Shown here in pieces: positions 8,085-53,875 of a DNA stretch of 64,000 bases. Positions within the stretch are counted from its first letter, which is position 1. Every line of letters starts with the position of its first letter. The notes beneath the pieces are model-generated. The model saw only the letters and a program-made list of their open reading frames with translations. It did no database searches and was not told the DNA's origin. This DNA comes from Psammoneis japonica (Eukaryota). The stretch is taken from NCBI GenBank assembly GCA_008632985.1, contig QPGO01000025.1, positions 372,001 to 436,000 on the forward strand, written 5' to 3'. Both the position numbers and the translations under genes were made by a program.

Positions 8085-8246
8085 TGCAGTGTCTCGCACC
8101 TTATTTTTCTGATATATAGTATTAATGAACCTATTAGATATAACGGAAGCCGTTGTAACGGGCTTCGCTGAAAGCGACCCTCGTTACCTCGGTCTTTCGC
8201 TCACAATTTTGTTATCACTGAAGTCTTTATCTCGTTAGACCTTGCA
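8085..8246 (+). repeat. 5' LTR of element 1
   Basis: Matches 13310-13471 base for base; contains a TATATAG box. Confidence 0.97.
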
Positions 8247-8275
8247 CTGTAATTACAGTCGATTCAAAGAACTGG

Positions 8276-8491
8276 ATGGAGACTAGGAACAATACAAACA
8301 AATTGACTAAACGTGAGAAAAGAGAACTACGCGCAAGAGCAGCGGTTTGGGCCATTGAGCACCAGAAACAAGTGCAACAACGCAAACGACACGAACAGAA
8401 TTTGGCGAGCCGAGTGCATCATTTGGAGTCAAAGGTAGAGTCCCTGGAGAGGACTATTGAACAATTGCATTCCCTTTTTCATGATGAGTGA
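8276..8491 (+). CDS. Small upstream ORF of element 1 (basic region plus coiled coil, 71 aa)
   Basis: ATG-initiated, overlaps the gag start in another frame, and is homologous to 22128-22352 in element 2. Confidence 0.6.
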   Translation: METRNNTNKLTKREKRELRARAAVWAIEHQKQVQQRKRHEQNLASRVHHLESKVESLERTIEQLHSLFHDE

Positions 8492-11400
8492 ATCGTTGAA
8501 GGAGCCTTGCATTGGCTATGAAGCTAAATTTGAGCATTCTGACTTGGAGGAAGTGAAATTGACCCAATCGCATGATGACGGTAGCACTCGTACAAAAAAG
8601 TGTCCGCGTTTTGATGGCACTCATGGTGTTGAAGCATTGTCATTCGTTGAGGATCGTTTTCGTAAAATTGCTGTGAAATTGGAGCACACCACTGGCGAGG
8701 AGTTGTTCGAAAATTTCGAGGAAGTGCTTGCGGATGCTGCAGAGGACAAGTGGGCGAACTTGACCAATGCAATTGACGATGCCGATAAAACTGTCGAGCG
8801 TTTTGATCAGGAAATCAATCGTTTTTACTTGTCTTATTGTGACAATGAAGCGCGTGATACGATGATTGAACATTTGCCAACTTTGAAAAAACCACTCAAA
8901 TCTGAAGTGCAGGCGCATGCAGATCGCATGGAAACCTTGATTCGGTGCTCCAACAAACTTCCAGGAAACACTCCTCAAGTCAACGAAGCTCAGAAGAAAA
9001 AGATGACATTCGACAGCTTTCCTCGTCGGTGGCGTGAGATGTGCACTCGAGCAGGACGGGCGACAGCGAACGACACTCTCGCTGAGATCATCAGTCATGT
9101 GAACAACGAGAAATCTTTTGCTGACAAGAGCAGCAACAAGAAGCAGGACAAGAAGAGGAAAAGCAATGGTGCTTCGTCTCAAGCTTCAAGACACTCTCGT
9201 GGCAACAGTGGCAGAACAGATCCAGAATCTAGATGCCCGGTGCACACGAATCACGACCACAAGTGGAAGGATTGCATTTTGAATCCAGAAAGCCAAAACT
9301 GTCGACCGAGGTCCGACCGTGGCGGTCGTAGCGGAGGTCGTGGTGGAGGCCGAGGAAACTGCCAAGGCAGAGGACCCCAAGGTCGAGGCGGTCGTGGCAA
9401 CTTCCAAGGTCGAGGACGTGGCAATTGTGGCAATCAAGGAGGATGTGGAGGCCGAGGTTATGGCAATTGTAATGACTCCCAGAATTCTCAAGGGAATGGA
9501 TCCCATTGCCAAAATCAAAACGGCACCCAAGCCAACGGTGACACCCAAGGCTGTGGAAATCCGGCTGGAGCAGCTCCTCCTGGTGGCTGGCAAATGGAGT
9601 CACACCATTTTGATCAAGGAGGGCCTCGTGAGATGTGAGGTGGAAATGGATGCGATCAGAACGGTCGCACCCATCAAGGCCAACGAAGTTGGCACAATTG
9701 ACAAGGGACGGAAGTGCCCGAGTCAGAGCGTGTCGCTCAATCTTTTCATGTTTCATGTGATTGTGAAGAAAACACATGTTTTAATGTTGATGACAATGTG
9801 GGAGACCTGATGGAATCTCATGCTGTGAATGAAGAAAAATTGGGCGGCGTTTTGGAGTGCGCTGCACCAACCCCTAAAACTGCGACTCCCAAACCATTGA
9901 ATGTGGTGCCAACGACATTGATGGCGGCGCGTGCCATTCAAAATCAAGAGAGCAAGCGAGTGTCACGAGTGCCATTGGATTCAGGAGGTGCTGACACTCT
10001 TGTTCATTCTTGAGTTTTGCCGAAGGGAGCGAATCCGACCATGAGCGATGAAGGACGGTTGAGCTTTCAGACGGCAGACGGATGACATGAATCCTCCCGA
10101 TGCGTCATTATGAAGGACTTGACATTGCCAGAATTTGACAAGTCAAAACAAGTCGACAGCATTGCGGCTCAAGTTTTTGACACCCCATGCAAGCATGATT
10201 TAATTTTGGGACAAGACTTTTTGTCGAAAGCCGGAATCGTGCTTGATTTTCGATTTGGAGTGACAAAGTGGTTGGAAACGTCAATCCCAATGAAGCAATC
10301 CAATCATTGGAACTCAGTTCAGAATTGGTTGGATACACTGGAAGACGACGGAGAGGACGAAGACGATGAGGAAGCCTTCGGACAATCTTTTATGATGGAC
10401 GCCAAATGCGAGAAAGCATCATCCGCGAAAGTGGCGCAAGCTCAAACTCACTTAACTCAAGAACAACGTGATGAGCTGCAGGCAGTGCTTGAAAAGCATG
10501 AAACCCTCTTTGATGGAACGCTTGGTAAACATCCGCATGAGACTGTTCACTTGGAAGTTGATCCCAACACTGTTCCCTTCCATTCTAAGGCTTGCGAAGC
10601 ACCCAAGAGGGGTGAAGCCGTTTTTAAGAAAGAACTGCAACATCCATGTAATGTTGGCGTGCTGGAACCAGTGGGACCAACTGAATGGGCAGCCGGAACT
10701 TTTGTAACTCCCAAAAAGGATGGACAAGTTCGATGGGCATCCGATTTTCGAGAGTTGAACAAGGTGCTCAAACGAAAGGTCTGTCCTCTGCCGATCATTC
10801 AAGACGTTATTCACCAACGCTCGGGATGCAAGCACTTGACCAAGTTGGACCTCACCATGTTTTATTGTCATGTCGAGCTTGACGAAGAATCCAAGGATTT
10901 GTGTGCTGTTGTTGCTCCGTTTGGAAAATTTTGATGTTGTCGATTGGCCATGGGTTTGAAAACCTCTCCCGACATTGCTCAAGCCATCATTGAAAAAGTG
11001 GCAAAAGGAATCGATGTTGAAACTTACATCGATGACATTGCTCAATTTGATGATTCGTTTGATGCTCACATGCGTCGACTCGATGAGCTGTCATCCAGAC
11101 TAGAAGAGAACAATCTGAAAATTAACCCACTCAAGTGCGAATGGTGTGTCCAAGAGACGGATTTTTTAGGCCATTGGCTCACGCCTGCAGGAGTCCGACC
11201 GTGGAAGAAGAAAGTGGAAGCGGTGCTACGAATGCAACCACCTAAAACTGTGACGCAACTACGATCGTTTGTCGGTGCGGCAACTCATTGTCGCAACATG
11301 TGGCCTCGTCGCTCACACGTGCTCGCTCCACTCACGAAGTTGACAGGCAAGAGCAAATTGGAATGGACCCCTGAATGTCAACGAGCCTTTGAAGATGTGA

Positions 11401-13196
11401 AAACCTTGATGCTGGACGACACCCTTTGGGTCCACCCGAATCATGACAAGCCATTCCACATTTGTGCTGACTCTTCGGACTGTCAGATGGGAGCCGCAAT
11501 TGTGCAAGACGGGAAACCAGTGGCTTGCTGGTCCCGGAAACTCAGCGCAGCACAACAGAACCACTCTGCGATTGAAAAAGAATTGTTGGCGGTGGCAATG
11601 TGTTTCAAAGAATTTCGAAGCATGTCATTTGGAGCTGACTGCACTGTTTTCACGGATCATAAAAATCTCACCTTTCGTGCGCTCAATTCTCAACGAGTTC
11701 TCAGGTGGCGACTCTTCTTGGAAGATTTTGCCCCAACTTTCGAATGCGTTGATGGCAAAGATGATCTCTTGGCGGATTGTTTTTCAAGATTGCCGCGTGT
11801 GGACCCTCCTGCGGAAGGGAAGTGTGCTCCCAACAAGGGCAAACTGATTGATTTTAAGGCGATCGACCCTGCCATGCTGCCGCATGAAGAAGAACTGGAT
11901 GACCAAAACCGTGTGTCTCATTTTTCCTGTCGTCGTGAAGAACCATCTCCATTTTACTCTTCTGTCGTGGACGACCCCGAATTGTGTGAATCATTTTTGA
12001 ACCATCCTTCTCTCAAGGAAATGCAAAACCCTGCAACCATGCAACGAATTCAAGAATGCCAATTCGTCGACGTGGAGCTGAACAATGTGCGACAACAACA
12101 TCCAGAACGCTTCGTTGTGGAATGTGTGAATCAGCGTCCTGTAATTTGTTGTCGTGCTCGACCGAATGATCCTCCGACTGCATGGAAAATTTGTGTTCCA
12201 ACGGCGTTGCTGCACGACATCATACGATGGCATCACAGGATTTTGGGACATGCAGGAGTGCACCGAATGCTTTCCACTGTTGGCGCACATTTCTGTCATC
12301 CTGCCCTTCGTCAATCCTGTGAAAGATTTCATTGTGCTGATTGTCAACATTTGAAAACTTTGGGCCCTGGACATGGGGACCTGCCTGAACGGGAAGCGCC
12401 TTTGTTGCCATGGACGGAAGTTGCGGTTGACCTCATCGGTCCCTGGAAAATTGAAATTCAAAACCATGAAATCGAATTCAACGCTTTGACTTGTGTTGAT
12501 GCCGTTTCGAATGTGACTGAACTCATTCGCATCGACAACAAAACCTCGTCTCACATTGCTTGACAATTTGAAAATTGTTGGTTGTCTCGTCATCCTCGTC
12601 CCAACCGTTGTGTCCATGACAATGGTGGAGAATTCATTGGAGAGGACTTTCAATTGTTATTGCAACGAGCAGGAGTGGAAGATGCTCCGACTGCGTCGCG
12701 AAATCCACAAGCCAATGCGGCATGCGAGCGTGTGCATCAAACTGTTGGAAATGTCTTGCGCACTTTGCTTCATGTTTATCCTCCACAGAATGTTGAGCAG
12801 GCTAATCAACCAGTGGACAATGCATTGGCAACCGCCATGCATGCAATGCGATGTGCGGTTTCTCGTGCTCTCAAGATTTCACCCGGTGCCATGGTTTTTC
12901 AACGTGACATGATTCTTGACTTGCCGGTCCCAGCCGATCTTGCTGCCATTCAAGAACACCGACAAGCGATTGTTAATGCGAATCTCCGTCGAGCCAACGC
13001 TAAACGCCGATCCTACGATTTTCAAGTTGGCGGACAAGTTCTACTCAAGGCTGTCGACCCAACCAAGCTCGAGCCACGAGCTCACGGTCCATGTCCTGTC
13101 ATTCAAGTGCACGCTGACGGCACGATTATGGTCCAACGTGCACCTCATGTGACAGAACGATTGAATATTCGTCGCGTCGTACCGTATCGTACCTGA
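8481..13196 (+). pseudogene. gag-pol of element 1 (Gag, aspartic protease LDSGG, RT YIDD, RNase H, integrase), one frame interrupted by TGA stops
   Basis: ORF pieces starting 8457, 9714, 10110, 10944 and 12582 share one frame. Motifs PLDSGG, DFRELNK, ETYIDD, TDHKNL, VDLIGP/HDNGGEF. Pol stops are TGA at positions consistent with CGA (10011, 10932, 12561). Confidence 0.93.
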
Positions 13197-13309
13197 GGTT
13201 AAGGGTTTTCTCCCCAACATTTGGGTTTCCCTTCTCTCCTCATCCATTGGAATTTAAATTTTTTTGAGTCCCGCATGATTCTCGACACTCGAATCATGGA
13301 AGGGAAGAG

Positions 13310-13471
13310 TGCAGTGTCTCGCACCTTATTTTTCTGATATATAGTATTAATGAACCTATTAGATATAACGGAAGCCGTTGTAACGGGCTTCGCTGAAAGC
13401 GACCCTCGTTACCTCGGTCTTTCGCTCACAATTTTGTTATCACTGAAGTCTTTATCTCGTTAGACCTTGCA
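13310..13471 (+). repeat. 3' LTR of element 1
   Basis: Follows the PPT, is identical to the 5' LTR and is followed by TSD TGGCC. Confidence 0.97.
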
Positions 13472-21933: not shown

Positions 21934-22097
21934 TGCAGCAACTCACTCGCACGCTTCTGATATATAGTATTAATTTTGGATATTAGATTAACGTAGCCGT
22001 TTGAGAGGGGCTCGCCAGCGTTCGCTAACGCTTAGGCTCCCCTCTCTTCGGTCTACTCACTTCTTTGTTTTGACATCAGTTTCAGCTTGAGCTTGCA
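21934..22097 (+). repeat. 5' LTR of element 2 (TpA intact)
   Basis: Colinear with 33593-33756; shares ctgatatatagtattaat with the element 1 LTRs. Confidence 0.96.
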
Positions 22098-22127
22098 CTG
22101 TAATTACAGTCGATTGTAAAGAGCTGA

Positions 22128-22352
22128 ATGAGAAACAACGATGCAACTAATGGGCTTGCGAAACAAGAGAAAAGAGTGTTGAGAGCGAAGGCAGCGAACT
22201 GGGCTTTGGAACAAAAACGGCAAAAGGAGACACGAAAACAACGCGAACAGGATTTGGCGATTCGGGTTGCACAACTCGAGTCGAAGGTAGAGTGCTTGAA
22301 GCAGTTTCTTGGAGGACCAACTTGGCCTGATGAGCAATCGCGAGAGCCTTAA
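22128..22352 (+). CDS. Small upstream ORF of element 2 (74 aa)
   Basis: Homolog of 8276-8491 (EKRxLRAxAAxWAxE...EQxLAxRVxxLESKVExL). Confidence 0.6.
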   Translation: MRNNDATNGLAKQEKRVLRAKAANWALEQKRQKETRKQREQDLAIRVAQLESKVECLKQFLGGPTWPDEQSREP

Positions 22353-23706
22353 AGAACCGTGCATTTTGCATGCTGTGAAATTTGCTCATTCGGATTTGGA
22401 GCTTGCAAAATTGACTCAATCGCACGATGATGGCAGCACGCGTACGAAGAAGTGCCCTTGTTTTGATGGAACTAGTGGCATTGAAGCGTTGTTGTTCATG
22501 GAAGATCGTTTTCGTAAACTGGCTGCAAAACTTGAATTCACTGCAGGCGAAGAACTGTTTGACAATTTCGAGGGGAAGTGTTGACAGATGCCGCTGAAGA
22601 CAAATGGTCCAATCTCACCATGGCGATTCCGGATGCGCAGAAGATGGTGGCTCGTTTTGACCAAGAATTGGCTCGTTTTTATTTGTCATGTTGTGAAACT
22701 GAAGCACGTGACACGATGATTGAATGCTTGCTCTCTCTTAAAAAGCCACACGATGTTGAAGTGCAGGCACGTGCGGATCGAATGGAGACCTTGGCACGAC
22801 ACACGAACAAGTTGCCGGGAAACAATCCAGTTGTCACTCAGAACCAGAAGAAGAAGATGATCTTTGACAGCTTCCCTTTGTCATGGCGCGAGATGCACAC
22901 AAGAGCAGGACGCACGATTGGAAATGATGCATTGGCGGAAATTGTCGCGCACATGAGCACGGAGAAATCATTTGCAGATGGGAACAAGAAGACTTCGAAG
23001 AAGCGCAAAGACGGACAGTCGAAAGGTGGTGGCTCTGCCAAGAAGAAAGGCAATCGCATTGACCCAGAATCTCAATGTCCTTTGCATGCTCACAATCACA
23101 AGTGGAAAGATTGCGCCATGAATCCCGACTCTAACAACTGCCGTCCAAGAACTGATCGCGGAGGTCGCGGGTGTGGTGGCCGTGGCGGTCGAGGTGGCGG
23201 TCGAGGTGGAGGTCGTGGTTGTGGCGGAGCGCAAGGTCGTGGTTGGCAAGGCCGTGGCTGTCAAGGTCATGGTGGTGGCCGAGGAAACTGCGGTGGTCGC
23301 GGAAAACACAACTCTGGCGGCAACAGCGGCGAGCATCATGATGATGGTGGCTCTTGCATGCAACATCAAAACGACACCTGAACCAATGCAGATGGCGGCG
23401 GTTACGGCAATCTGGCCAGAACGGCTCCTCCCAATGATTGGTCTGCTGAAAGCCATCATCTTGATTTGATGGGAGGGCCTCGAGAGCATCGAGGTTGAAC
23501 GGGAAGTTTTCGACCTGGTGGTCGCTTCTTGGGACGCGGTCGACACTCACCCAATGAGCTTGAAGAGCTGTCGTCCGAGTGTGTCACTCCTGATTCTTGC
23601 ATGTTTGATGATTGTGCTGACTGCATTGATGATTGTTGTGTGTGTGCTGCTGATGCATTTGATGATGACGATTTCGGAAATTACACTGTGAATGACGAAG
23701 ACGATG
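22330..23706 (+). pseudogene. gag and gag-pol junction of element 2 (frameshift near 22572)
   Basis: ESLKEPCI...LTQSHDDGSTRTKKCP as in element 1; CPxHxHxHKWKDC knuckle-like motif and RGG-rich tail. Confidence 0.88.
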
Positions 23707-24907
23707 TGCAACATGCGTTGTCATGTACGTGTCATGTGTGTGTGTCCATGTGTTAAATAAAAGCACATTTCAATCGCACGTCAATCGTGGGTTCGTACGA
23801 AGTGCAGATCAGTCACACAGAAGTGATCGGATGTCGAGAATCGCAAATGCGATCGCACGATGATGTTGACATCTTGTGTGTCAACATCAATCGAATCCGG
23901 ACAATCTGTCGTCACGATCATGTTCTCCGAAAGGCCTTTTGTCTGTAGGAGCAGTGCAAAAGGTTTAGGCTGTTGAGAACCCGTTCGGAGAAACCCAAAG
24001 TGATTGCGCAGAAATGATTCTCATAATTTTCACCTTTTGAACTTCACTCTACTTTCGTTTGCACTCGTTCTTCGAGCACAGTGCATTGTGCACACACACC
24101 ACAGAAGGTGATGAGTTCAAGATGAAGCTTTCACCTCATGTGGCCAATGCCAAGACTTCGTCAAGGCAGGAGAAAATCGTCCCTCAACCGCTGGAATCGA
24201 ACTCCGAGCCGAAGAGCCTCAAACCGAGCCAGCACCTCAAGATGGAGCAATGTTTTCATCCCGAGAAGAAGGACAGCCGCACCCACACCATCAATGTTGA
24301 GCACTGCAAGAAACAAGGTGTCCCCAAGTTCATCAAATTTCTCAAGAGCTGCGATCAACTTCTGGTGGGCCAGAATGTCAGGAAGCAATCTGATGAGTTT
24401 CGTCTCATGCGTGTGTTGCTCCAAGGAGATGCTCTACGTGCCTTCGAGAATGCGGCAGCGAACCTTGAAGACGAATCTGCGGAAGGAAGCTTTGCAACAT
24501 GCGTTGTCATGTGCGCACTACACACGTACATCTACACATTAAACAAAAGTGTGTTTCAATCGTACGTCAATCGTGGGTTCGTACGAAGTACAGATCAATC
24601 ACACAGAAGTGATCGGATGTCGGGAATCGCAAATGCGATCGTACGATGATGTTGACATCTTATGTGTCAATGTCAATCGCATCCGGACAATCTGTTGTCC
24701 CGATCATATTCTCCGAAAGGCCTTTTGTCTGTAGGAGCAGTGCAAAAGGTTTAGGCTGTTGAGAACCCGTTCGGAGAAACCCAAAATGATTGCGCAGAAA
24801 TAATTCTCATAATTTTCACTTTTTGAACTTCATTCTACTTTCGTTTACACTCGTTCTTCGAGCATGGTGCATTGTGTGTACACACCACAGAAGGCAATGA
24901 GTTCAAG

Positions 24908-26062
24908 ATGAAGCTTTCACCTCATGCAACCAACGCCAAAACTTCGTTAAGGCAGGAGAAAATCGTCCCTCAACCGCTGGAATCGAACTCCGAGCCGAAG
25001 AGCCTCAAACCGAGCCAGTGCCTCAAGATGGAGCAACGTTTTCATCCCGAGAAGAAGGACAGCCGTGCCCACACCATCAATGTTGAGTGCTACAAGAAAC
25101 AAGGTGTCCCCAAGTTCATCGAATTTCTCAAGAGCTACGATCAACTTCTAGTGGGCCAGAATGTCAGGAAGCAATCTGATGAGTTTCGTCTCATGCGCAT
25201 GTTACTCCAAGGAGACGCCCTACGTGCTTTCGAGAATGCGGCAGCGAACCTTGAAGATGAATCTGCGGAAGGAAGCTTCGAGAAATGCCTGCAACATCTC
25301 ACGAGGCATGTGTTTCCCAAGAACGCACTTTCGGTGCAGAAACGTTATTTGCGTCGTGATCTCAAGAAGCCGGAGTCCATGAAAGTACGCGAAATTGCTG
25401 CTTGGGTCCAGGAAGTCAACGAAGACCTCAAGTTCTATCCTCCCTTTGGGAAGGAACAGAAGATCGAGGACGACGAGCTCAAGGACATCCTCTTCAACCT
25501 TGCACCTCGAAAGTGGCAGCGTCAGTCGACCGTCCAGGGTTTCGAAATTTTGAAACATACCTGTGACGAGCTGGTTGAGTTCTTGGAGCGCCTGGAGGTC
25601 GCAGAAGACATGTTTGATGGCATTCATGCCAAGGCTGATGGCAGTGGCGGCACTGCATCAAAAGCCAAGAGTGGTTCCCAACGTGGTTCCAAAAATGGTC
25701 ACCAACATGGTGCCGAAAAATCTCAGTCCGAGAAGTGGTGCATTTTGTGCGAGAAACCCACTCATAACACGGACAAGTGCTGGTCGATCAAAAGACTTGC
25801 GAAAGAACGCCTTGGGAACTATGAACCCGACCCGAAACGGCGCCGTTCAAATGGCAATCGCACGTGGTCTCGTCGCGACAACGACAACGCCGCTCGCAAA
25901 GAAGAGTTGAATGCCATGGCGATCCAAGCAGTTCAAAAAATGCTCAAAGCGAGTTCTTCGAACAATGATGAAAAACACAAGAGCAAAGATTGTGATTCTG
26001 ACACCCTTGACGAGGAAAATCATCAGTTTGAAAAAATGACGCGCAGTGATTCCGAGGAATGA
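24908..26062 (+). CDS. Gag of element 3
   Basis: Open 384-codon frame with LLQGDAL, QKRYLRR and CILCEKPTHNTDKC zinc knuckle. A truncated duplicate of its 5' part lies at 24122-24492. Confidence 0.85.
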   Translation: MKLSPHATNAKTSLRQEKIVPQPLESNSEPKSLKPSQCLKMEQRFHPEKKDSRAHTINVECYKKQGVPKFIEFLKSYDQLLVGQNVRKQSDEFRLMRMLLQGDALRAFENAAANLEDESAEGSFEKCLQHLTRHVFPKNALSVQKRYLRRDLKKPESMKVREIAAWVQEVNEDLKFYPPFGKEQKIEDDELKDILFNLAPRKWQRQSTVQGFEILKHTCDELVEFLERLEVAEDMFDGIHAKADGSGGTASKAKSGSQRGSKNGHQHGAEKSQSEKWCILCEKPTHNTDKCWSIKRLAKERLGNYEPDPKRRRSNGNRTWSRRDNDNAARKEELNAMAIQAVQKMLKASSSNNDEKHKSKDCDSDTLDEENHQFEKMTRSDSEE

Positions 26063-29000
26063 CTTGCACCGCAAGAGGAGTCTTGCGCTCTGCTGGATGT
26101 TGGGAAGCCCAGAAAAAGGGCCAAAGTAATTCATGCTAGTCCAGCAGTCGTCGCCCATATGAACACTTCATTGGGTGAGGCAAAAAATAAGCCTCTGCGC
26201 GTTCTCCTCGATGGCGGAACATCGTCAACCATAATTTTGCGCAAATTCACGCGGAAACTCAGAACAAAAGTGTCCGCCACCAAACTCTGGGAAACCAAAG
26301 GAGGGCTTTTCACGACTGACAGTCGATGTAAGATCCAATTCACCTCACCCGAATTTGACAAACACAAGATGATTGAAACAACGGCACATGTTGACAACTC
26401 CCCTTCTTCTTCGAGTCGTTGTGACATGATCATGGGACGCGACTCAATGTCAAGTCTTGGGACAACATTGGACTTCTCGAATGAAGAAATTAAGTGGGAA
26501 GATGCAACTGCTCCTGTGAAGAATGTTGATGCACTCTTCGATGCCGATGTTTTTAAGTTGATTGCCAATCACATTGAGGAATCTCATGCAGTGATTGGTC
26601 TCAATGACAGGGTCAATCGGATCCTTGACTCAGACTGTCACGCTGCAAACCTCAACAATGTGACCGCAGCAGCTGCTCATCTAACTCCTGAAGAGCAGAA
26701 GCAGCTGAGCTTCCTCTTAAAAAGATTTGAAAACCTTTTCGATGGTTCTCTGGGCAAATGGACCGGGAAACCGGTGGATTTAAAGTTGAAATCGGGCGTG
26801 AGTCCGCATCATGCCAAACCATTTCCCATGCCACAAGCCTTGGAGGCGACTGCTCGTAAGGAGGTTGAAAGACTGTGCAAGTTGAAAGTCTTAAGAAAAA
26901 TAAATTGTTCTGAATGGGCGGCTCCAACCTTTGTTCAACCCAAGAAAAATGGCAGAGTTCGGTTCTCACCCGACTTTCGAGAGCTGGGTAAGAGGTTAAT
27001 TCGTGCTCCGTTTCCTCTGCCCAACATTCAGGACATGCCACAGAAGCTCGAAGGCTTCATGCATGCAACGTCCCCAGATTTAAACATGGGATGCTGTCAC
27101 ATCGAATTGACGCTGCATGCACGTCGCTTGTGCACGATCGTCATGCCTTGGGGCAAACATGAGCACTGTAGACTCCCGATGGGAATCTGTGGAGCTCCAG
27201 ATGTTTTCCAAGAGCACACGAGTGAGCTCATGGCAGGTCTGGAGTTCGTCAGAACTCACATTGACGACACATTGTGTCTTGCAAAAGGTGATTTTCAAGA
27301 CCACCTCAAGAAGCTTGAAACGGTGTTCTTGCGCCTAGAACAAGCCGGATTGAAGGTCAACGCCGAGAAGTCCTTTTTCGCTAAACCCGAAGTGGACTGT
27401 CCAGGCTTTCATGTCACCCGCAAGGGCATCAGTCCGATTCCAAAAAAAGTAGAAGCGATTCACGCGATCGCAACTCCTAAAACTCGCAAGGAATTGCGAC
27501 GCTTTATCAGTGTGATCAACTGCTGTCGAGACATGTGGCCTCGACGATCTCATGTTTTAGCTCCTTCAGCCAAACTCACTTCTGCCCAAGTAAAGTGGCA
27601 ATGGACCGAAACAGAACAAAAAGCCTTCGAAAATGTGAAGCGCATCATCTCCAAAGACATGCTGTCATCACACCCGAATTTTAATGTGCCCTTTGAGACA
27701 TGTGCCGATGCCAGCAAATCTCAATTGGGGGCGGTTGTTACTCAGAAAAACCGACCAATTGCCTTCTACAGCCGCAAGCTGAATGGAGCGCAGACGCGTT
27801 GTGCTGCAACGGAAAAAGAGCTGTTGTCCACAGTGGAGACGTTAAAAGAGTTCCGAAATGTGCTGTTTGGCCAACAGACAAACATGCACACGGATCACAA
27901 AAATCTCACACACAAAAATTTCACAACGGACAGAGTCATGCGTTGGCGTCTAATAAAATGGAAGAATGCAGTCCCAAAATAACATGCCTTCTACCCAAGT
28001 GAAGTGGCAATGGACCGAAACAGAGCAAAAAGCCTTCGAAAATATGAAGCGCATCATCTCCAAAGATGTGCCATTGTCACACCCGAATTTTAACATGCCC
28101 TTTGAGACATGTGCCGATGCTGGCAATTCTCAATTGGGGGCGGTTGTTACTCAGAAAAACCGACCAATTGCCTTCTACAGCCGCAAGCTGAATGGAGCGC
28201 AAACGCGTTGTGCCACAACAGAAAAAGAACTGTTGTCCACAGTGGAGACGTTAAAAGAGTTCCGCAACACACTGTTTGGCCAACAGATGAACATGCACAC
28301 GGATCACAAAAATCTCACACACAAAAATTTCACAACGGACAGAGTCATGCGTTGGCGTCTAATGAAATAGAAGAATGCAGTCCCAAAATGACATGCCTTG
28401 AGGGCAAGGCAAATGTTGTCGCAGATGCGATTAGCCGACTTGCTATGAAGAAAATAGAACCCATGGAAACCCTCAGCACAGAAGAGCTGGCTGAAAAGGT
28501 CCCACCAAAATCCTGCGACAATGTCTTTCCGTTAAATTACAAAGTTCTTGATTATGAACAAAAACGGGACAAAGACATTCTCTCCCAATTGTCAAATAAG
28601 ACGTTTCATACGAAGACTTTTCGTGGAGGCGAGCGAGACCGGTTGCTCACATGTCATAAGGATAAAATTGTCGTCCCGAGGACGTTACAAAAGGCAGTGA
28701 TAGATTGGCATCACACGCACCTTCTTCACCCTGGCATAAATCGAACAGAAGAAACAATCTCACAACACCTGTGGTGGTCCACCTTACGTGAAGACATACG
28801 AAAATACGTGTCGAGATGTGAGACGTGCCAAAAATTCAAAAAGAAACACAAGAAACATGGACATTTACCTCCTAAGTGCGCAGAATCCGTGCCATGGGAA
28901 CGACTGTGTGTGGACCTTGTTGGGCCATACAAAATACGTCGTAAGGGAAAGAAAAAACCCCCAGTCCTGAAATGTTCAACTATGATCGATCCAGCAACTG

Positions 29001-29674
29001 GATGGTTTGAAGTTGTGGAAATCCCAAACAAGGAGTCCACAACTGCAGCTGGACTGCTAGAACGAACATGGTCAAGCAGACATCCTTGGCCATCGTCAAT
29101 TGCATGTGACCGTGGAAGTGAGTTCATCAGACACCAATTTAGAGAAATGGTGCAAGATGATCATGGCATTGAAGTCAAGCCTGCAACTGCATGAAATCCA
29201 CAAGCAAATGCAGTTGTTGAACGTGCACATCAAGCACTGGGGAACATGCTCCGCACATTTGATTTGCAACACACACCTCTGGACACTGAGGATCCTTTCG
29301 CTGGAGTGCCATCAGCGGCAGCGTTTGCGGTGCGTTCTGTGCATCACACCACTGCGCAAGCTACACCAGGACAACTGGTCTTCAATGGAGACATGACATT
29401 CAACGTCCAACATGTCGCAGACTGGAAACCAATCCAGCAGCGAAAACAAGAAATCACAAATAAAAACAACGCTCGAGAGAATGCTCGACGCACTCCTTGC
29501 ACGTGCAGAGCAGGAGAAAAGACACTGCTCGAGAAAGACTCGCAAAAATTAGAACAGCCCTGTGTTGGACCGCATGCAATGACAACGGCACATGCCAATG
29601 GCACAGTGCAGATCAAACGCGGCAACGTCATTGACACTGTCAACATTCGTCGAATGGCGCCGTTTGACGACTGA
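26063..29674 (+). pseudogene. pol of element 3 (PR LLDGG, RT with THIDD, RNase H duplicated, integrase)
   Basis: ORFs 26159-27982, 27966-28370, 28109-29194 and 29246-29674 with Gypsy motifs; frameshift caused by a 409-bp tandem duplication. Confidence 0.92.
27582..28399 (+). repeat. 409-bp tandem duplication of the RNase H region
   Basis: 27582-27990 repeats at 27991-28399, with CTT microhomology at the junctions. Confidence 0.93.
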
Positions 29675-30079
29675 CTCTAATGTGCAATTGGGGAGGCGAG
29701 TGCAACATGCGTTGTCATGTGCGCACTACACATGCATGTCCACATGTTAAATAAAAGTGTGTTTCAATCGCACGTCAATCGTGGGTTCGTACGAAGTGCA
29801 GATCAGTCACACAGAAGTGATCGGATGTCGAGAATCGCAAATGCGATCGTACGATGATGTTGACATCTTGTGTGTCAACATCAATCGTATCCGGACAATC
29901 TGTCATCACGATCATATTCTCCGAAAGGCCTTTTGTCTGTGGGAGCAGTGCAAAAGGTTTGGGCTGTTGAGAACCCGTTCGGAGAAACCCAAAGTGATTG
30001 CGCAGAAATGATTCTCACAATTTTCACCTTTTGAACTTCATTCTACTTTCGTTTGCACTCATTCTTCGAGCACAGTGCA

Positions 30080-33000
30080 GATGTGGGACTTGAGTGTGCT
30101 GCACCAACCCCAAAAACAAAACCAATTGAACCATCAAATGTGGTCCCCACAACCTTGTTCGCGGCGCGATTCATTCAAGATGAGGAAAGCAAGCGCGTGA
30201 TGCGGGTGTTGCTTGATTCCGGTGGAACCCATTCAATGATTCATGCTCGGGTGTTGCCGGTTGGAGCGGTTCCAGCATTGGAAGAGACAGGACCAATTCA
30301 TGCGAAGTTCAGGACAACAGCGGGAGAATTCGAATCAACTTGTTGTGTTCGACTGCAGGACTTGGTGCTCCCTGAATTCGACAAGATGAAACATGTTGAC
30401 GGCATGCATGTGCATGTGTTTGACTCACCCTGCCAATGTGACATGATCCTTGGACAGGACTTCTTGGTGAGAGCGGGTGTCACATTGGATTTCGAGCACG
30501 GAATTGTCAAGTGGCTCGGTTCAAGCATTGCGATGAAGCCGAGGAATCAGCGGACTGGCACCCAGCAATGGCTCGATGATTTGACTGATGAGCCAGCCAA
30601 TGATGATGAAGTGTGGGACAGCTGCATCCTCGATGCAAAGCATGAGGAGATGTCCCTTCTGAAGTGGCTTCAGCTCAGAAGCATCTTGCTGCCGGACAGC
30701 AAGAGAAATTGCGCCTCGTGTTGGAGAAACACACTGCTCTTTTTGATGGCACCCTTGGCAAGTGCACTGGCGAAAAAGTTCACCTTGACATTGATCCTGA
30801 CGCCGTTCCGTGCCATTCTCGAGCGCATGCAGTGCCGCACAATGATCTCGAGACTTTCAAGCAAGAATTGGATCACTCAGTGGCTCTTGGCGTTCTTGAA
30901 GAAGCCGGAACTTCGGAATGGGCTGCAGGTGCCTTTGTTCAGCCGAAGAAAGATGGTCGAGTGTGGTGGCTCAGTGATTTTCGGGAACTCAACAAAGCCC
31001 TCAAGCGCAAGGTTTGTCCCTTGCCGATCATTCAAGATGTGTTGCAAAAGAGAGCAGGGTGCAAATTTCTTGCAAAGTTGGATCTCTCAATGATGTGCTG
31101 CACGTTTGAACTGGACGACGATTCCAAAGATCTGACGACAATCGTGACACCCTTTGGAAAGTGTCGATGCTGCTGTCCAGCAATGGGTTTGAAGCCGGCT
31201 CCGGATGTTGCGCAACACTTGATTGAGAAAACTGTGCATGACTTGGACGTTGATGCATGTGTTGATGATCTCGCTCAATTTGATGACAATTTTGACATTC
31301 ACCTTGGTCGTCTCGACAAACTCCTGCAACATTTGGAAGAAGCTGGATTTAAAGTGAATCCTTTGAAATGTGAATGGTGTGTGCAGGAAACAGATTTCCT
31401 TGGGCATTGGCCAACTCCGACTGGAATTCGTCCGTGGAAGAAGAAAGTGGAAGCTGTTCTGCGAATGCAACCTCCGGAAAATGTCAAGCAGCTTCGTTCG
31501 TTTCTTGGTGCTGTGACACACTGTCGCAACATGTGGCCTTGGCGTTCTCACTTGTTGAAACCCTTGACAGATCTCACAGGCAAAGGCTCGTGGACGTGGA
31601 CAGCAGATTGTCAGGCGGCGTTCGAAGAGATGAAAGCAGCTCCAGCGGCCGAGACGTTGATGGCGTGTCCGAATCATGACAAACCCTTCCACATCTGTGC
31701 CGATGCCAGTGATCACCAAATGGGTGCAGTGATTGTACAAGACGGAAAACCCATTGCATGCTGGTCTCGAAAGCTGAACGCGGCGCAACAAAACTGCTCG
31801 ACGATCGAAAAAGAACTCTTGGCCGTTGTCATGTGCTTCCGCGAATTCCGAACGATGCTCCTTGGCGACGACTTGCACGCATTCACCGACCACAAGAACC
31901 TCACCTTTCGCACCTTGAATTCACAACGTGTGCTCCGTTGGCGCCTCTTTCTGGAAGACTTTGCCCCTCAATTCCATTGTGTCGAAGGCCGCTTGAATGT
32001 CTTGGCTGATTGTTTTTCTCGTTTGCCTTGCATGGATCCTCCCTCTGAAGGGAAGAGCTTGGCTCTGGGCAAAGGAACTGTTGTTGATTTTGCTCCACTC
32101 GATTCGAAGTTGGTGCCGAGTGAGGAACCATCCGAAGTCGAGGATTTCCACGATGAGGACTTGGAGCTCGGCGCATGCCGATTCAAGTGTTGTCGCAACA
32201 TTGAAAATGAAGTCCACTCACACTTCTTCTCTTTCTTTGTTGATGAGCCGAAACTGTTCGATTCCTTTTTGAATCACCCTGCGATGCAGGAGATGCAAAA
32301 TCCAATGACGTTACAATGGATTCAAGAGCACCAGTTCGAGGACCAACAATTGAACCAGATGCACATTGCTCACCCTGATCATTTCCTTTGTGGAATGTGT
32401 GAACAATCGACCGCTTGTGTGTTGTCGCATGCGACCAAATGATCCTCCAGGACAGTGGAAAATCTGTTTGCCGACTGCGCTTGTGCCCGACATCTTACGG
32501 TGGTGTCATCTCGTCCTTGGCCATGCCAGAAGCCAGCGCATGCGTGAAACAATCCAGGCTCATTGTTGTCACCCTGGGTTGCGTCGTGTGTGTGATGAAC
32601 ATTCTTGTGCTGATTGCCAACGCAACAAAACTTTGGGTCCTGGCTGTGGAGAGCTGCCCAAATGAGAAGCTCCATTGACTCCCTGGTTGGAAGTGGCAGT
32701 TGACCTCATTGGCCCATGGAAAATCAAAGTGCCGAATGGAGAGATTGAGTTTCGGGCATTGACCTGCATTGATCCTGTCTCTGATCTTGTTGAACTGGTG
32801 AGAATTGAGAACAAAACTGCTCGACATGTTGCCAACCAATTCGAAAACTGCTGGCTTGCACGCTGTCCCAGACCGAATCGATGCATCCACGACAACGGCG
32901 GCGAGTTCACTGGGTGTGAGTTTCAGATGCCATTGCAACAAGCCGGAATTGATGATGTGCCGACTGCTTCATGCAACCCTCAAGCCAACGCCATTTGTGA

Positions 33001-33469
33001 ACGAATGCACCAGACTGTCGGCAATGCATTGCGCACGCTCATTGCTTCTAATCCACCTCAAAACCTTCAGGGTGCAGCCAGCCTCGTGGACGATGCTTTG
33101 GCAACTGCAGTGCATGCAACCCGCTGTGCTGTTTCCCGTTCCTTGCAGATTTCACCAGGTGCCATGGTGTTCGGACGTGACATGATCTTAGACATCCCAG
33201 TGCTGGCGGATTTGTTGACGATTCAAGGCCATCACCAGATGCTGATCAACGACAACTTGCGATGAGCCAATGCCAAGAGAAGATCCTGCGATTGTCAAAT
33301 GGGTGATCAAGTTCTAATCAAGTCCATTGAGCCATCCAGACTCGAGCCTCGTGCTCATGGCCCTCATCCTGTTGTTCAAGTGCATGCAAATGGCACACTC
33401 TCGGTTCGTCGAGCTCCTCATGTGGTTGAGCGCCTCAACACTCGGCGCCTGATTCCTTTTCGCGGTTGA
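30080..33469 (+). pseudogene. pol of element 2 (PR, RT with CVDD, RNase H, integrase) with frameshifts and stops
   Basis: LLDSGG, DFRELNK, DACVDD, TDHKNL, VDLIGPW, HDNGGEF; colinear with element 1 pol. Confidence 0.93.
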
Positions 33470-33592
33470 TCAGGGGGTTTTCTTCCCAACACCTGGGTTT
33501 CCTCCTGTCATCATCTTTGCTTTTGGTTTTGGTCCTTGGTTTTTGGCCCTTTGCATGATCCTCCAGTTCTTTCGGATCATGGAAGGGAAGAG

Positions 33593-33756
33593 TGCAGCAA
33601 CTCACTCGCACGCTTCTGACGTGTGGCATCAATTTTGGACATTGGATTGATGCAGCCATTTGAGAGAGGCTCGCCAGCGTTCGCTGACGCTCAGGCTCCC
33701 CTCTCTTTGGTCTGCTCACTTCTTTGTTTTGACATCAGTTTCAGCTTGAGCTTGCA
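33593..33756 (+). repeat. 3' LTR of element 2 (all TpA converted)
   Basis: Same length as the 5' LTR, 17 substitutions, no TA left. Confidence 0.96.
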
Positions 33757-36022: not shown

Positions 36023-39000
36023 TGCAGCATGCGACTGTTGTGTGCACACCCATGATTGTACATTGTTTGTGTGTCAATCGCACCACAGTCGTGGATGCGT
36101 GCAAAGGACAGAACGATCACACAGAGTTGATCGGATGTCGAGAATTGCAAATACGATCGATTGACGATGTTGACATCTTGCGTGTCAACAGCAATCGCAC
36201 CCGGACAATCTGTTGTCACGAACACATTCTCCGAAAGGCCTTTTGTCTGTAGAAGCAGTGCAGAAGCTTCAGGCCATTGAGAACTCGTTCGGAGAAACCA
36301 AAAATCACAGAGCAAAATTTAATCTCATAATTTCCACTTTTCGTGCACTGTTCTACTTTCGTTTGCACTCGTTCTTTGAGCACAGTGCATTGTGTGCACA
36401 CACCACAGAAGGTAAAAAGCACGGAAAATGAAAATTTTAACTAATGTGCCTTTGCAAATTCTTCTGTGAACAGGAATGAATCGCGTCAGTTCTGCTGGAA
36501 TCGATTTCCGAGCGGAAGAAGCTCAAGCCGAGCAGTGCCTCAAGATGGAACGCTGTTTTTCGTCCACCAGACAAGAGGATTCGCTCCAATGCGGTCTATT
36601 CCAAGCACCCAAGGATCAAGGGCTCTCAAGCACACCGCATTGTCAAAAAATCTACACCAAGTCATGGTTGCAGAGAATGCAAGTTCTGAGTCAATCAGAT
36701 CCGAGAAATGCGTCTGCCATGCAAGGAGAGACTGTTGGAGAGTTTTTTGAGACCGAGTCGATGATCCTCGAGTCCAAGGAACAAGAGGGAATCGTTGGAA
36801 AGCACCTCAAGCATCTCACAACTCATGTCCTCCGAGGAAATGCACTTCAGAATCAGGGAAATTATTTTCGAGACGACCTGAAGAAACCAGAGCTGCTTGA
36901 CAGCGAGAAAGCCTCTGTTGGACCCAAGAGGTCAACGATGAGAGTCTGTGCGACCCTCAGATGGATTCTAAGTCGAATCTAGCGGGAAACCGAGCGCTGA
37001 TTTATCAGCTGTCACTCGCACCGCAAGGATGGCAGCATCAGCCTACTGTCCAAAATGTTGAACTGCTGGATCATGCCCTTGACGAGCTGATTGAGGTTTG
37101 AGTCGTCTAGAGGTCGGCAAGGACGTCCATGACAAAAAAACATGTCAATTCGGGCTCTGACAGCGCAGTTGATTCCACAATCAAAAAGGTTCCAATTTTG
37201 GTTCCAAAAATGGTCTCCCACATGGCACCACCACAATCCAAAGTGAACAAAAGGTCCAATCTTTGAAAAAAGAATGCCTGCATCACGGATTAAAGCCATT
37301 CCGAAAATGAACTAGCAAAAGAGTGCAAGGGTGACTCTGAAAGAGACCCAAAAATGCGCCGTTCAAATGGCAATCGCACGCGGTCGCGTCGCGACAACGA
37401 AAATGCCGCTCGCAAAAAAAAAAGATGAACGTCATGATTGATCAGGCGGTTCAAAAAATGCTCAAAGCGAGTTCCTTGAACAAAGAAAAAGAGCACAAGG
37501 GCAAAGAATCAGATTCTGATGCCCTCAGTGAAGAAAAATGCCAATTTGATCGGATGATCCAGACTGAATCCGAAGAACAATTTTGGTCCATTCACGAATC
37601 ACATGCTTTGCTGGACATTGGGAAGCCTAGAAAAAAGGCAGAAATAATTCATGCCAGTCCAGGAGTCATCATTTACATGAGTGCTTCCTTGGGAAAGGAG
37701 AGAAAAAAAAAGCATCTGCGTGTTCCTGTCGACAACGGAACATCGTCAACCACAATTTTGCGCAAATTCGTGCGAAAGTTGAGAACACAAGAATCCGCCA
37801 CCAAAAACTTGGGAAACCAAGGGTGAGCTCTTTACGACTGATGGTAAACACCGAATTCAGTTCTCACTGTGCGAAATTTAAGGCATGCTGATGTTCAAAC
37901 AGTGTGTGTTGAAAACACCAAATTTTCTTCAGGTTCAAATGACATGATCATGGGACGCGACTTAATGTCCAGTCCTGCAAGTCATGTTGGACTACGCAAA
38001 TGCAGAAATCTAATGGGAAGAAGCAATTGCCTTATGAAGAATGTTCGTGCACTCTTCGATGCCGATGTTTTCAAGCTGAAAACCGATCACATTGAAAAAT
38101 GTGACGCCGTGAATAGAGTTGACAACGGAACCAATGGTCCTCGACTCACATTGTCACGCCATCGATCTCAATCAAGTGACAACTACGGCGATGCATCTAA
38201 CCCAAATGAACACAACCAACTCAATCTTCTTCTTAAGAGGTTGAAATCGTTTTGAAAAGTTCCTCAGACGAATGCATGGGAAGCATCAGTGGATCTCATC
38301 GTGGAAAATCTGACGCGATTCCACCACGCGTGAGAACCTTCTCCTATCACAGTCTTTGGAGGCGTCCAATCAAAAGGAGTTTGACCCATTATGAAAGATT
38401 GAAGTCTTGAGAATGAAATTGCTCTGAACAAGTCGCTCTGAGACTCATTGTCCAAAGAAAACAGGTCGAGTTCGACCGTGTCCGACACTCAGAAGCTTAG
38501 CACAAGGTTCATACAGGTGGTGTGTCCTTTACCCAATATTCAGGAAATACTGTTGAAGCAAGAACGTTTCACATATGTAATCTATTTGATTCAAACATGG
38601 AATGCCACCATGTCAAATAAAAAAAGCACACGTCGTGCTCACACGAAAATCATGCCGTGGGGAGAAAATGAGCACTGTGGACTTCCAATGAGAATCTATA
38701 GAGCCCCAGATATTTTTATACAACACTTGAGTGAACTCATGACAGGTTTGAAGTTGTCAGAACGACTATATGTGATAGTTTGTGCCTGACAAAAGTAACT
38801 TCAAAATATCACCTGTACAAGCAACAGCTTAGTGCGACATTCAAACGACTAGAACAGTCGCTTAGAAGGTTAACAACAAAAGTCCTTCACTATTTAACTT
38901 GAAATAAACTATCAAGACTTCCATACGTAACGATATGCAATCGATTACAAAGAAAATGGAGGCGATTCAAGCAATCGCAACACGAGAAAAACGTAAAGAA

Positions 39001-52072: not shown

Positions 52073-53875
52073 TCACTTTCTCGACTGCACCTTGCCATTT
52101 TCGTCAACAAATGATGATGTCTGCCCATGAATCAATGCAGGATGAAAGTTCTGCATCAGGTGTGCCACTCGAAACATCAAAGGTGCAAGACCAAGCTGGA
52201 GGATCGGCACTGGTGAATCAAAACAATGCGTCGACATCTTTGCAGCTCCATTCACCATCTCGTTAAAGATTTGTAGATTCCCAACTTTTTGCGTGGCAGC
52301 CGTGTCCGCTTCTGATTGCTTCACCTGCAGCTTTGTCTTCTTCGGAGGTCGTTGGGTCCCTGCGCCCATCCGTGCTGCAAAATTGTCGATCGTGAATCCT
52401 TTGTCATCCAGAGTTGTGTGACCAAAGGGCACGTTGTCCAAAAGCTTGCTCATCTTTGTTGCGACAGGATCTGAAATTGATCCCGGGTGCCCATCTTCCG
52501 CGATGGATCCATCGTGGGAACAACCAATGGGATCTGTGCCTGCAAGCATTTTTGTTGTGTCATGACCTTTGTGGTCACTGTGCACACTCGAGTGAGCATC
52601 ACTCTTGGTTGTTGTCTGTGTCCAATGCTCTGTCGCATCGAGAAGCAAGAAGACAAGGGCATGTCCACAAGCCCACACAAATCGATCAGGGAAAGCCCAC
52701 AGCATTTGTGATCTGGTTGGAGTCGGAAACCACAGTGACAGAGAATGATTCAAGAAGACAGCCCAAGCGTGTGTTGTGTCACTGATGATGCCAGGAGAGA
52801 CGGCAAACAAAGGTTCCACAGCTTCGTGCGAGATTCCAAGTTTTGCATGCATGGAATGGATCAAGCATTTGGTCTTCCAATCAACAACTCTTGCTTCCGG
52901 TTTGGTGGGAAACTCCTGGTCACTAACATCCACTTCTCCGAGTCATTCTTTGGCAGACACCCTGCTGCATCGATGAAAGCCAACACACAGTCCATCGCCA
53001 CGGTCGCAACCACCTCCCTCTGTGTCATCATCCCAGTTCAGAACATGCAGGAAGGCCTCATTAGAACCACAGTTGGGAAAACACGTGTGCGTCCTCACTG
53101 CCTTTGAAAGTCCACCACCTGGCGCAAGGTCACTGCAAGACAAAGGACGATCCTTGTTTGTGGCATGAGCAGCCACCAACTCGTCTTCCAACTCGAGCAT
53201 TGTCTCTTTGGACTCAATGAGCTCCAATTTGCAGGACTCCAGTTGGCTCTGAAGTTGCTTTGCATTCTTCTCGGAGACATTCTTGTCGTGGTTTGCGAGT
53301 GCAAGGGTGCTGCAAAGATTTGCAATGACACCATCCTTCTTTTCTGACTCTTCTGTTTTCAACACAGCCATCTCAAACATTTTCTTCACAACAACTTGAG
53401 TTTTTGCAAAGGCCACATGTGCAAGAGGAGTTTTGGGATCACGCTCACTCAGTGGTTCGACCAAACGGTGTGCCGCAACCCACGACGGCAAGCCTGCGCC
53501 TCATGCTGATGCCGCCTGCTTGCTTTTCCACCGGTTGATTGGTCGTTCCCAAGCAGGATCAGAAAGCTCGCATGCAACAAAGTCCAAAGGCAGGCAGTTT
53601 GGTGGTGGAAAACCAGTCCACACAAAGTGGTCGCCATCACAGTGTTGCTTGTCGGGATCAATCTCGTTCATCATCCATTCTTTTGTCTTGGGATTGCACG
53701 TCCTTTCTTCCGGTCTAAAATGCCACGGAGCCAGCCACAGTCCCGCACGTGGCTCATTTTGAAGCTTGTCCTTTGCCACATCTGAGAGGTCTCCACCCAT
53801 GGCATTTGTCATCTTGGTCCGAATTTCCTTCTTTCGAGGTGTCCTTATGTTGGTTGCACAGCAGCCGATCTTCAA
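52073..53875 (-). pseudogene. DDE_Tnp_4 (Harbinger/ISL2EU-type) transposase with THAP-like N-terminus, coiled coil and HTH
   Basis: GCCATN...CDGDHF; LLDATE; SDHKGHDTTKMLAG; GSISD; DKGF; VGNLQIFNEMVNG. Fragmented across ORFs 53501-53875, 52943-53491 and 52073-52933. Confidence 0.82.

What the first reader, a model, noticed from the sequence alone, without database searches (positions are those of the whole stretch)
27582..28399. 409-bp tandem duplicate shows independent, reciprocal TG vs CA outcomes
SEEN: the two RNase H copies differ mostly by TA/TG/CA swaps: ctgccc/ctaccc, gtaaag/gtgaag, aatgtgaag/aatatgaag, gccagc/gctggc, gctgca/gccaca, cagacaaac/cagatgaac, aataaca/aatgaca. INFERENCE: mutation occurred in place after the duplication, on either strand at random. 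This argues for chromosomal DNA mutagenesis rather than RNA editing or RT error, which would be strand-biased. TG/CA swaps alone could also derive from CpG, but several sites retain TA in one copy.
Basis: partly seen in the sequence, partly recalled or inferred. Interest (0 to 1): 0.72.

Follow-up and report, generated by a model that had tools for sequence, protein, structure and literature searches.

The report
TA-erasing hypermutation in diatom retrotransposons
Two near-identical stretches inside a dead diatom retrotransposon record a process that turns TA steps into TG or CA on both DNA strands after insertion, in sharply bounded patches; the same mutation pattern has been reported in print from one unrelated alga, and its enzyme is unknown.

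Summary
Observation confirmed. The 409-bp RNase H repeat is in both haplotypes. 23 of 30 differences lie at sites where other family copies keep TA (P 5e-13); CG appears there once.

The two units differ at 4 variants that segregate in the family, so they come from two different Ty3/gypsy insertions joined at a 3-bp microhomology, not from one local duplication.

In-place mutation is still shown, by 27 LTR pairs, allele differences and a DNA transposon. A>G at TA is about 25% per strand against 0.5-1.2% at other A, strand-symmetric, TAY over TAR, with no strand clustering.

New here: loss is mosaic. 18 of 27 copies carry long spared tracts at recurrent places, each LTR is either spared or hit, and CpG decay follows the same patches. 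A metagenomic gypsy family only about 63% identical shows the same signature.

Closest known: TpA hypermutation in Bigelowiella natans (bioRxiv 2026). This scan noted the basic pattern before on other pieces of this genome. Best reading: a chromatin-guided DNA A-to-G mutator, probably a deaminase; enzyme not shown.

The parts
27579..27987 (+). Unit A: RNase H region of pol, end of the segment from family lineage X; 31 of 38 TA-class sites are TG or CA
27988..28396 (+). Unit B: RNase H region from family lineage Y; 30 of 38 TA-class sites are TG or CA
27988..27990 (+). 3-bp microhomology at the A/B junction, same in haplotype contig C295
23707..24085 (+). LTR1, 5' LTR of insertion Y (4-bp target duplication at 23703-23706)
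24086..24492 (+). First 407 bases of Y's leader, cut off exactly where LTR2 begins
24493..24871 (+). LTR2, 5' LTR of segment X; differs from LTR3 at 5 non-TA, non-CG sites, two of them family variants; keeps 16 TA
24827..27982 (+). gag-like frame (no Pfam hit) and pol frame (RT, RNase H) of segment X; 12 of 14 columns that are Tyr in most relatives read Cys or His
28106..29194 (+). Integrase region of Y (Integrase_H2C2, rve)
28399..28955 (.). Zone spared in class I family copies; here 16 of 37 sites lost, with many allele differences
28943..28957 (+). 15-nt purine tract, all-purine in 27 of 27 copies, inside the right border of the class I spared zone (possible central PPT; inference)
29165..29955 (.). 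Zone spared in class II family copies (integrase 3' end and the first two thirds of the 3' LTR); largely hit in this copy
29701..30079 (+). LTR3, 3' LTR of Y (4-bp target duplication at 30080-30083)
21934..33756 (+). Outer Ty3/gypsy element that hosts the finding's element (5-bp target duplication); its 5' LTR keeps 12 TA, its 3' LTR none
8085..13471 (+). Second Ty3/gypsy family, absent from C295, 5-bp target duplication; identical TA-rich 162-bp LTRs but interior mostly TA-erased with private outcomes
52076..52942 (-). DDE_Tnp_4 DNA transposon, TA-erased; control without an RNA or RT step

Best explanation
Structure (well supported, route inferred). The repeat is a join of two insertions of one Ty3/gypsy family. 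Most simply, copy X inserted into the leader of copy Y, and a deletion of about 4 kb at a 3-bp microhomology then left two offset RNase H segments side by side. Mutation (shown). After insertion, a host process changes A:T to G:C almost only at TpA, on either strand, site by site, and it continued after the two haplotypes split. Targeting (inferred, about 0.7). It acts where the chromatin is in the silenced, CpG-decaying state; patches and single LTRs that escape that state keep their TA. Chemistry (inferred, about 0.5). Adenine is deaminated to hypoxanthine in DNA by a TadA/ADAT-fold enzyme and fixed as G at replication. The effect is to destroy transposon coding sequence (Tyr to Cys or His) and so to work as genome defence.
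For: Specificity: A>G 26.1% (n 3257) and 24.5% (n 3310) at TA on the two strands, 0.5-1.2% at AA, CA and GA, transversions at TA at most 0.2%. Direction: of 179 columns holding both TG and CA, 164 also hold TA, 4 hold CG, 3 both and 8 neither; TA loss is matched by TG+CA gain (slopes -0.56, -0.46) with CG flat. In place: 27 LTR pairs differ by 278 TA singles, 159 TG<>CA doubles, 72 CG changes and 61 others (25 of 27 have exact 4-bp target duplications). Ongoing: alleles differ at 32 of 128 TA sites plus 8 doubles, against 7 of 5429 other bases; a gene block differs at 4 of 173 TA sites. Not processive: same-strand share 0.49-0.51 against 0.507 expected beyond 5 bp. Mosaic: 18 of 27 copies have a spared run longer than any of 300 simulations. 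CG loss is 6 of 326 in spared LTRs and 53 of 742 in hit LTRs, within-copy r 0.23, 0 of 2000 permutations. Context TAY > TAG > TAA resembles the YAY preference of the TadA-derived editor ABE7.10 (PMC10188366, passage). Weak A>G leak at other A in hit tracts: 77/34924 against 7/14095. ADAT2-like, TadA-like and two A_deamin genes are present; no AAG/MPG hit. A DNMT5-like Tudor-DNMT-SNF2 gene is present.
Against: No enzyme is tied to the process. ADAT2, TadA and ADAT1-type genes are ordinary tRNA editors, and none of the frames scanned showed a chromatin-binding domain. Endonuclease V, which cuts at inosine, is present. A>G and T>C cannot be told apart from sequence. The near-absence of editing at CA is stricter than the YAY rule. 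No methylation data were seen, so CpG decay is only a proxy for chromatin state. LTR sparing does not follow the TA content of the flank (rho 0.00, n 54), so simple spreading from neighbours fails and the cause of the tracts is unexplained. In B. natans the target is single-copy, so repetition itself need not be the cue.
Confidence: 0.6

Rival explanations
1. The lesion is on thymine: T in TpA is oxidised (5hmU, 5fU) or O4-alkylated in silenced chromatin and mispairs with G, giving T>C.
For: Gives the same spectrum. Many C5-methyltransferase matches (27), several DNMT4-like by motif (my reading; diatom DNMT4 is related to the RIP enzyme RID and of unknown function, PMC9998398 passages). One deaminase-2OG oxygenase fusion exists.
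Against: No Tet_JBP match (first look found no candidate, genome may be incomplete). The miscoding chemistry is recalled, not tested. No known enzyme does this at TpA.
Confidence: 0.15
2. Error-prone gap filling (pol eta or iota type) during repair of T:G mismatches from 5mC deamination mutates nearby A:T pairs, as in the second phase of somatic hypermutation.
For: TA loss and CG loss co-occur between and within copies. Pol eta gives WA hotspots after mismatch repair (PMC6423074 passages).
Against: AA is no hotter than CA or GA (0.7% vs 0.9-1.2% and 0.5%). Transversions are near zero. TA changes are about 9 times more frequent per site than CG changes, yet there is no strand clustering. Y-family polymerase genes were not searched.
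Confidence: 0.12
3. The mutator is uniform, and spared tracts are patches recently overwritten by gene conversion from unmutated cDNA, bounded by reverse-transcription intermediates such as a central PPT.
For: Tract borders recur. One lies at a conserved 15-nt purine tract and has a variable left end. CG loss is also lower in spared tracts.
Against: Private transversions are equally frequent in spared and hit tracts of the same copies (7/14095 vs 15/34924, P 0.81), and other C>T/G>A do not differ significantly (P 0.32), so spared tracts look as old. The counts are small.
Confidence: 0.15
4. RNA editing (ADAR-like) or reverse-transcriptase error before integration.
For: Two A_deamin genes exist. 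ADARs favour a 5' U (stated in the B. natans preprint).
Against: Equal TG and CA on one strand. Differences between the two LTRs of one insertion and between alleles. The same erasure in a DNA transposon and in duplicated methyltransferase copies.
Confidence: 0.03
5. The repeat is an assembly artefact joining two loci, or the swaps are CpG decay or fungal-type RIP (CA>TA).
For: A and B do come from different family lineages. Reads across the junction were not seen.
Against: Same junction in two separately assembled haplotype contigs that carry their own differences. One 4-bp target duplication encloses the whole structure. CG is almost absent at the variable columns. TA is depleted, not gained, and conserved Tyr columns read Cys or His.
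Confidence: 0.04

Closest known systems
TpA-restricted hypermutation of integrated NCLDV and virophage DNA in Bigelowiella natans (Mettrop et al., bioRxiv 10.64898/2026.01.13.699255; parts 1-3 of 5 read and a term search, methods and supplements not seen)
   Same: A>G and T>C only at TpA, both strands, confined to foreign or silent DNA, roughly 1000-fold there, TpA-poor DDE and RT sequences as long-term scar, ADAT2-type deaminase proposed but not shown.
   Different: Here a diatom (Stramenopiles, not Rhizaria); targets are multi-copy LTR and DNA transposons, often mutated to near saturation. Shown by LTR pairs and alleles, not by mutation-accumulation lines. The main text has no hit for diatom, LTR or context; the TAY preference, the spared tracts and the link to CpG decay are not in the parts read.
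Repeat-induced point mutation (RIP; RID/DNMT4) of ascomycetes
   Same: Transitions on both strands at one dinucleotide, confined to repeats, disabling transposons. Diatoms have DNMT4 relatives of RID (PMC9998398 passages).
   Different: RIP is C>T and creates TpA; this destroys it. No sign that local duplication is the trigger (61 of 76 sites lost in the two units against 105 of 154 in the rest, P 0.06). Timing in the life cycle unknown.
TadA-derived adenine base editors (ABE7.10) and ADAT2/3 deaminases
   Same: A>G with a 5' pyrimidine and 3' pyrimidine preference (YAY favoured, AAA disfavoured; PMC10188366 passage).
   Different: Engineered and acting on single-stranded DNA. Here the enzyme is unidentified and CA is almost untouched.
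Pol eta A:T mutagenesis in somatic hypermutation
   Same: A:T mutations with TA as a hotspot, linked to a cytosine lesion.
   Different: The WA motif includes AA (PMC6423074 passages); patches and transversions are expected (recalled). None is seen here.

Membership tests
B. natans-type TpA hypermutation | A>G / T>C almost only at TpA | tested here: met
   25-26% at TA against 0.5-1.2% at other A
B. natans-type TpA hypermutation | Both strands | tested here: met
   TG 2102, CA 2160, strand ratio 0.92
B. natans-type TpA hypermutation | Confined to foreign or selfish DNA, genes spared | tested here: met
   TA o/e mostly 0.0-0.4 in elements against about 0.55-0.7 in the gene blocks; allele differences 40/136 against 4/173
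B. natans-type TpA hypermutation | Rate about 1000-fold above background | tested here: inconclusive
   About 135-fold from alleles, about 40-fold from LTR pairs, 400-1300-fold in hit tracts after Poisson correction (my arithmetic); no absolute rate
B. natans-type TpA hypermutation | De novo, episodic, in a subset of lines | not testable with these tools
   Needs mutation-accumulation lines
B. natans-type TpA hypermutation | Same enzyme (ADAT2/3 proposed) | not testable with these tools
   An ADAT2-like gene exists (L089); activity unknown in both organisms
Fungal RIP | C>T transitions that create TpA | tested here: not met
   TA is lost, TG/CA gained
Fungal RIP | Triggered by homology between duplicates | tested here: inconclusive
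   Units 61/76 against rest 105/154, P 0.06; paired LTRs are often spared
ADAR / RT pre-integration hypermutation | One-strand bias, fixed before integration | tested here: not met
Pol eta WA mutagenesis | AA hot as well as TA, clustered by strand | tested here: not met
Ty3/gypsy LTR retrotransposon (the substrate) | RT-RNase H-integrase order, LTRs TG..CA, target duplication | tested here: met

The most novel reading that the evidence does not exclude
Diatoms, and perhaps SAR protists more widely, have a genome defence built on a natural DNA adenine deaminase that is steered by silencing chromatin. Each new insertion acquires a stable mosaic of silenced and protected patches, held by maintenance-only methylation, and the TG/CA scars are a permanent record of that chromatin map for each copy.
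Probability: 0.3. Interest if true: 0.88.

Novelty: new variant of a known kind. Interest (0 to 1): 0.63.

Why it matters
A-to-G hypermutation of chromosomal DNA is on record, in the library searched, from one preprint on one chlorarachniophyte. Finding it in a diatom and in a second, unrelated gypsy family from metagenomes suggests a wider defence system whose enzyme would be a natural DNA adenine editor. The patch pattern gives a direct test of what guides it: compare methylation in spared and hit tracts on the same long reads. It also warns that LTR-identity dating and repeat classification fail in such genomes, since identical LTRs can enclose a mostly TA-erased interior and hit LTRs look far too old.

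Tried and rejected
Public runs: 3 runs listed, one holds 60% of the words, no RNA holder listed. 1121 short contigs of that run were laid and 8 shown; none shown spans the junction, so no verdict. The holder may be the source sample.

Flank spreading as the cause of LTR sparing: no correlation. Family haplotype as the cause of tract class: none seen by eye. Inheritance of mutated states from a master copy: outcomes shared 0.56-0.61 within classes, the same as background; at most 0.75, mean 0.62, in the second family. Extra LTRs beside three copies looked like self-nesting but belong to an 80-85% related subfamily, so they do not support the nested model.

Enzyme searches: Tet_JBP none, MT-A70 none but the control was silent too, AAG/MPG none; none proves absence. 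The atlas search on the deaminase-oxygenase fusion gave only oxygenase hits at 0.78.

Literature: no paper with RIP + diatom + TpA or diatom + TpA dinucleotide + retrotransposon. None of the 20 papers listed holds 'TpA depletion'. One search gave mostly fungal RIP and transposon papers. Searches gave only the B. natans preprint as relevant. Subscription journals are not in the library.

Rows dropped: 4 of 30 loci (own and haplotype copies); 7 of 34 regions without a usable LTR pair; 10 of 27 copies (fully hit or almost unhit) in the private-mutation count; 6 of 21 second-family copies without two complete LTRs.

Full report
1. Observation. The window is diatom DNA (24 silicon-transporter matches in a 91-Mb, 597-contig genome). 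TA o/e is 0.30 overall, about 0.55-0.7 in gene blocks and down to 0.02 in repeats. The repeat lies at 27579-27987 / 27988-28396 in the RNase H part of a Ty3/gypsy pol. It has 30 differences: 9 TG<>CA doubles, 6 TA<>TG singles, 1 CG<>CA, 3 other A/G and 2 transversions. 23 of the 30 fall in TA-class sites, which cover 76 of 409 bases (P 5e-13). Contig C295 is the other haplotype (or a very recent segmental copy): about 99% identical over most of a ~37-kb overlap, with the same junction.

2. Polarity. The genome search gave 42 matches, a lower bound. In 26 other copies, columns that hold both TG and CA nearly always hold TA as well (164 of 179; CG 4, both 3, neither 8), and TA loss across copies is balanced by TG and CA gain with CG flat. 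At 14 columns where at least 70% of 120 protein relatives have Tyr, the window has 6 His, 6 Cys, 1 Phe and 1 Tyr. The direction is therefore TA to TG or CA, not CpG decay and not RIP.

3. What the repeat is. Four of the five non-TA, non-CG differences that can be scored between A and B are family variants (for example A in 9 copies and T in 17). A's pattern is shared by 9 copies and B's by 5 others. The element has three LTRs. One 4-bp target duplication encloses LTR1 (23707) and LTR3 (30079). LTR2 (24493) starts exactly at its first base after 407 bases of leader and differs from LTR3 at 5 non-TA, non-CG sites. The nearest family copies of the middle segment differ from those of the two outer segments, which share theirs. 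The simplest history (inference) is that copy X inserted into the leader of copy Y and about 4 kb was then deleted at a 3-bp microhomology. A double template switch in reverse transcription is possible but less simple. A and B share the same outcome at 19 of 28 doubly lost sites against 16.8 expected by chance (P 0.25), so none of the loss need be shared.

4. In place, ongoing, both strands. Against three TA-rich natural copies, 23 others show A>G in 26.1% and 24.5% of TA on the two strands, 0.5-1.2% at other A, 2.9% G>A at CG and almost no transversions. 27 LTR pairs differ by 278 TA singles, 159 doubles, 72 CG changes and 61 others. The two haplotypes, which share the join, differ in the element at 32 of 128 TA sites plus 8 doubles, 20 of 336 CG sites and 7 of 5429 other bases. 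Polishing errors cannot be fully excluded without reads. A hemizygous gypsy at 8085-13471 has identical LTRs but a mostly erased interior whose outcomes match no other copy closely, so the process is fast. A DNA transposon and duplicated methyltransferase copies are erased too; there most TG<>CA doubles cannot be polarised with three or four copies. Neighbouring mutated sites are not strand-coordinated beyond 5 bp, which points to many separate events. A competing-risk fit on 7694 site observations gives relative rates by 3' base of T 1.83, C 1.61, G 0.67 and A 0.50, with a strand ratio of 0.92.

5. Mosaic loss (new here; a word search of the scan's notes found nothing on it). In 27 full-length copies, 11 are spared upstream of about window 28900-29040 with a variable left end (one marginal), 6 are spared from about 29165-29315 to 29955, 3 in both zones and 7 in neither. 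18 of 27 have a spared run longer than any of 300 simulations that keep site and copy rates. In the second family, of 15 complete LTR pairs 5 are spared at both ends, 4 at the 5' end, 3 at the 3' end and 3 at neither. The class does not follow flank composition or family haplotype, and outcomes are not inherited within a class. CG loss (6/326 against 53/742) and non-TA A>G (7/14095 against 77/34924) are lower in spared tracts, while transversions are equal. This fits a lasting per-copy chromatin state better than recent gene conversion, though the counts are small. Why the borders recur is unexplained; one lies at a conserved purine tract.

6. Elsewhere. Four of 120 protein relatives show 2 to 9 Cys or His at the Tyr columns. 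A metagenome scan with one of them gave 80 loci. A 54-locus family, about 63% identical in DNA to the window's and partly redundant between samples, shows A>G of 19-21% at TA against 1-4% at other A, with TAC 0.30, TAT 0.27, TAA 0.12 and TAG 0.12. An 8-locus family agrees. 18 other loci have TA o/e 0.66-0.90 and show no scar, but the scan favours intact peptides. The hosts are unknown.

7. Mechanism. Shown: site, spectrum, strands, timing after insertion, patchiness, covariation with CpG decay. Inferred: guidance by silencing chromatin (a DNMT5-like gene is present; DNMT5 loss removes most DNA methylation and derepresses young transposons in Phaeodactylum, PMC9998398 abstract passage). Inferred and weaker: adenine deamination. 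In favour are the pure transition spectrum, an equal weak leak at AA, CA and GA, a 3' preference like that of ABE7.10 (PMC10188366 passage) and no AAG match. Against are the presence of Endonuclease V, only ordinary-looking deaminases and the symmetry between A>G and T>C. Thymine modification and error-prone repair remain rivals.

8. Known and new. It reports the same TpA-only signature in mutation-accumulation lines, in single-copy viral insertions, and proposes ADAT2 (parts 1-3 of 5 read; methods and supplements not seen, and they may bear on sequence context or transposons). The diatom case works like that system and meets the three sequence-level criteria; shared enzyme and ancestry are untested. 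It is not RIP. At least ten earlier notes on this genome describe the basic pattern; they are not independent support. Additions here are the two-insertion origin of this repeat, allele-level evidence of ongoing change, the context rule, the spared tracts and a second organism.

9. Verdict. Real, non-random and more than CpG decay. A variant of a recently described and still unexplained kind of hypermutation. Interest 0.63.

Noticed in passing
window 8085-13471: Gypsy insertion present in one haplotype only, with identical TA-rich LTRs around a mostly TA-erased interior; LTR-identity dating would call it brand new.
   Followed up: yes
window 21934-33756: Outer gypsy: the 5' LTR next to the gene block keeps 12 TA, the 3' LTR none; its 30000-33000 part has 1-2 TA per kb.
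   Followed up: partly
window 1-3500, 44001-46000, 56001-58000: Blocks where both TA and CG are nearly gone (o/e 0.02-0.05 and 0.1-0.25), the end state with TG/CA as sink; C295:26001-40000 continues the first block.
   Followed up: no
window 3577-4117: (ACACGGC)n array of 77 units, much shorter in haplotype contig C295.
   Followed up: no
L088:313-1785 (G000 C79): A cytidine-deaminase-fold domain fused to a DIOX_N/2OG-Fe(II) oxygenase; probably base salvage, not tested.
   Followed up: partly
L042-L044, L048 (C297, C301), L051 (C28): Duplicated C5-methyltransferase copies that are themselves TA-erased (o/e 0.03-0.11), some with stops.
   Followed up: partly
L098-L101 (C40, C79): Two separate A_deamin (ADAT1/ADAR-fold) genes; no dsRNA-binding or chromatin domain in the frames scanned.
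   Followed up: partly
window 42112-42647: 181-bp tandem array with 10 TG<>CA doubles between the first two units and almost no TA left.
   Followed up: partly
window 36023-40725: Another LTR element of a related subfamily; its LTRs differ by 10 TG<>CA doubles and 4 TA singles.
   Followed up: partly
L175-L254: Metagenomic gypsy families with the same TA>TG/CA scar and stronger CpG decay (CG o/e about 0.4-0.8); host unknown.
   Followed up: partly
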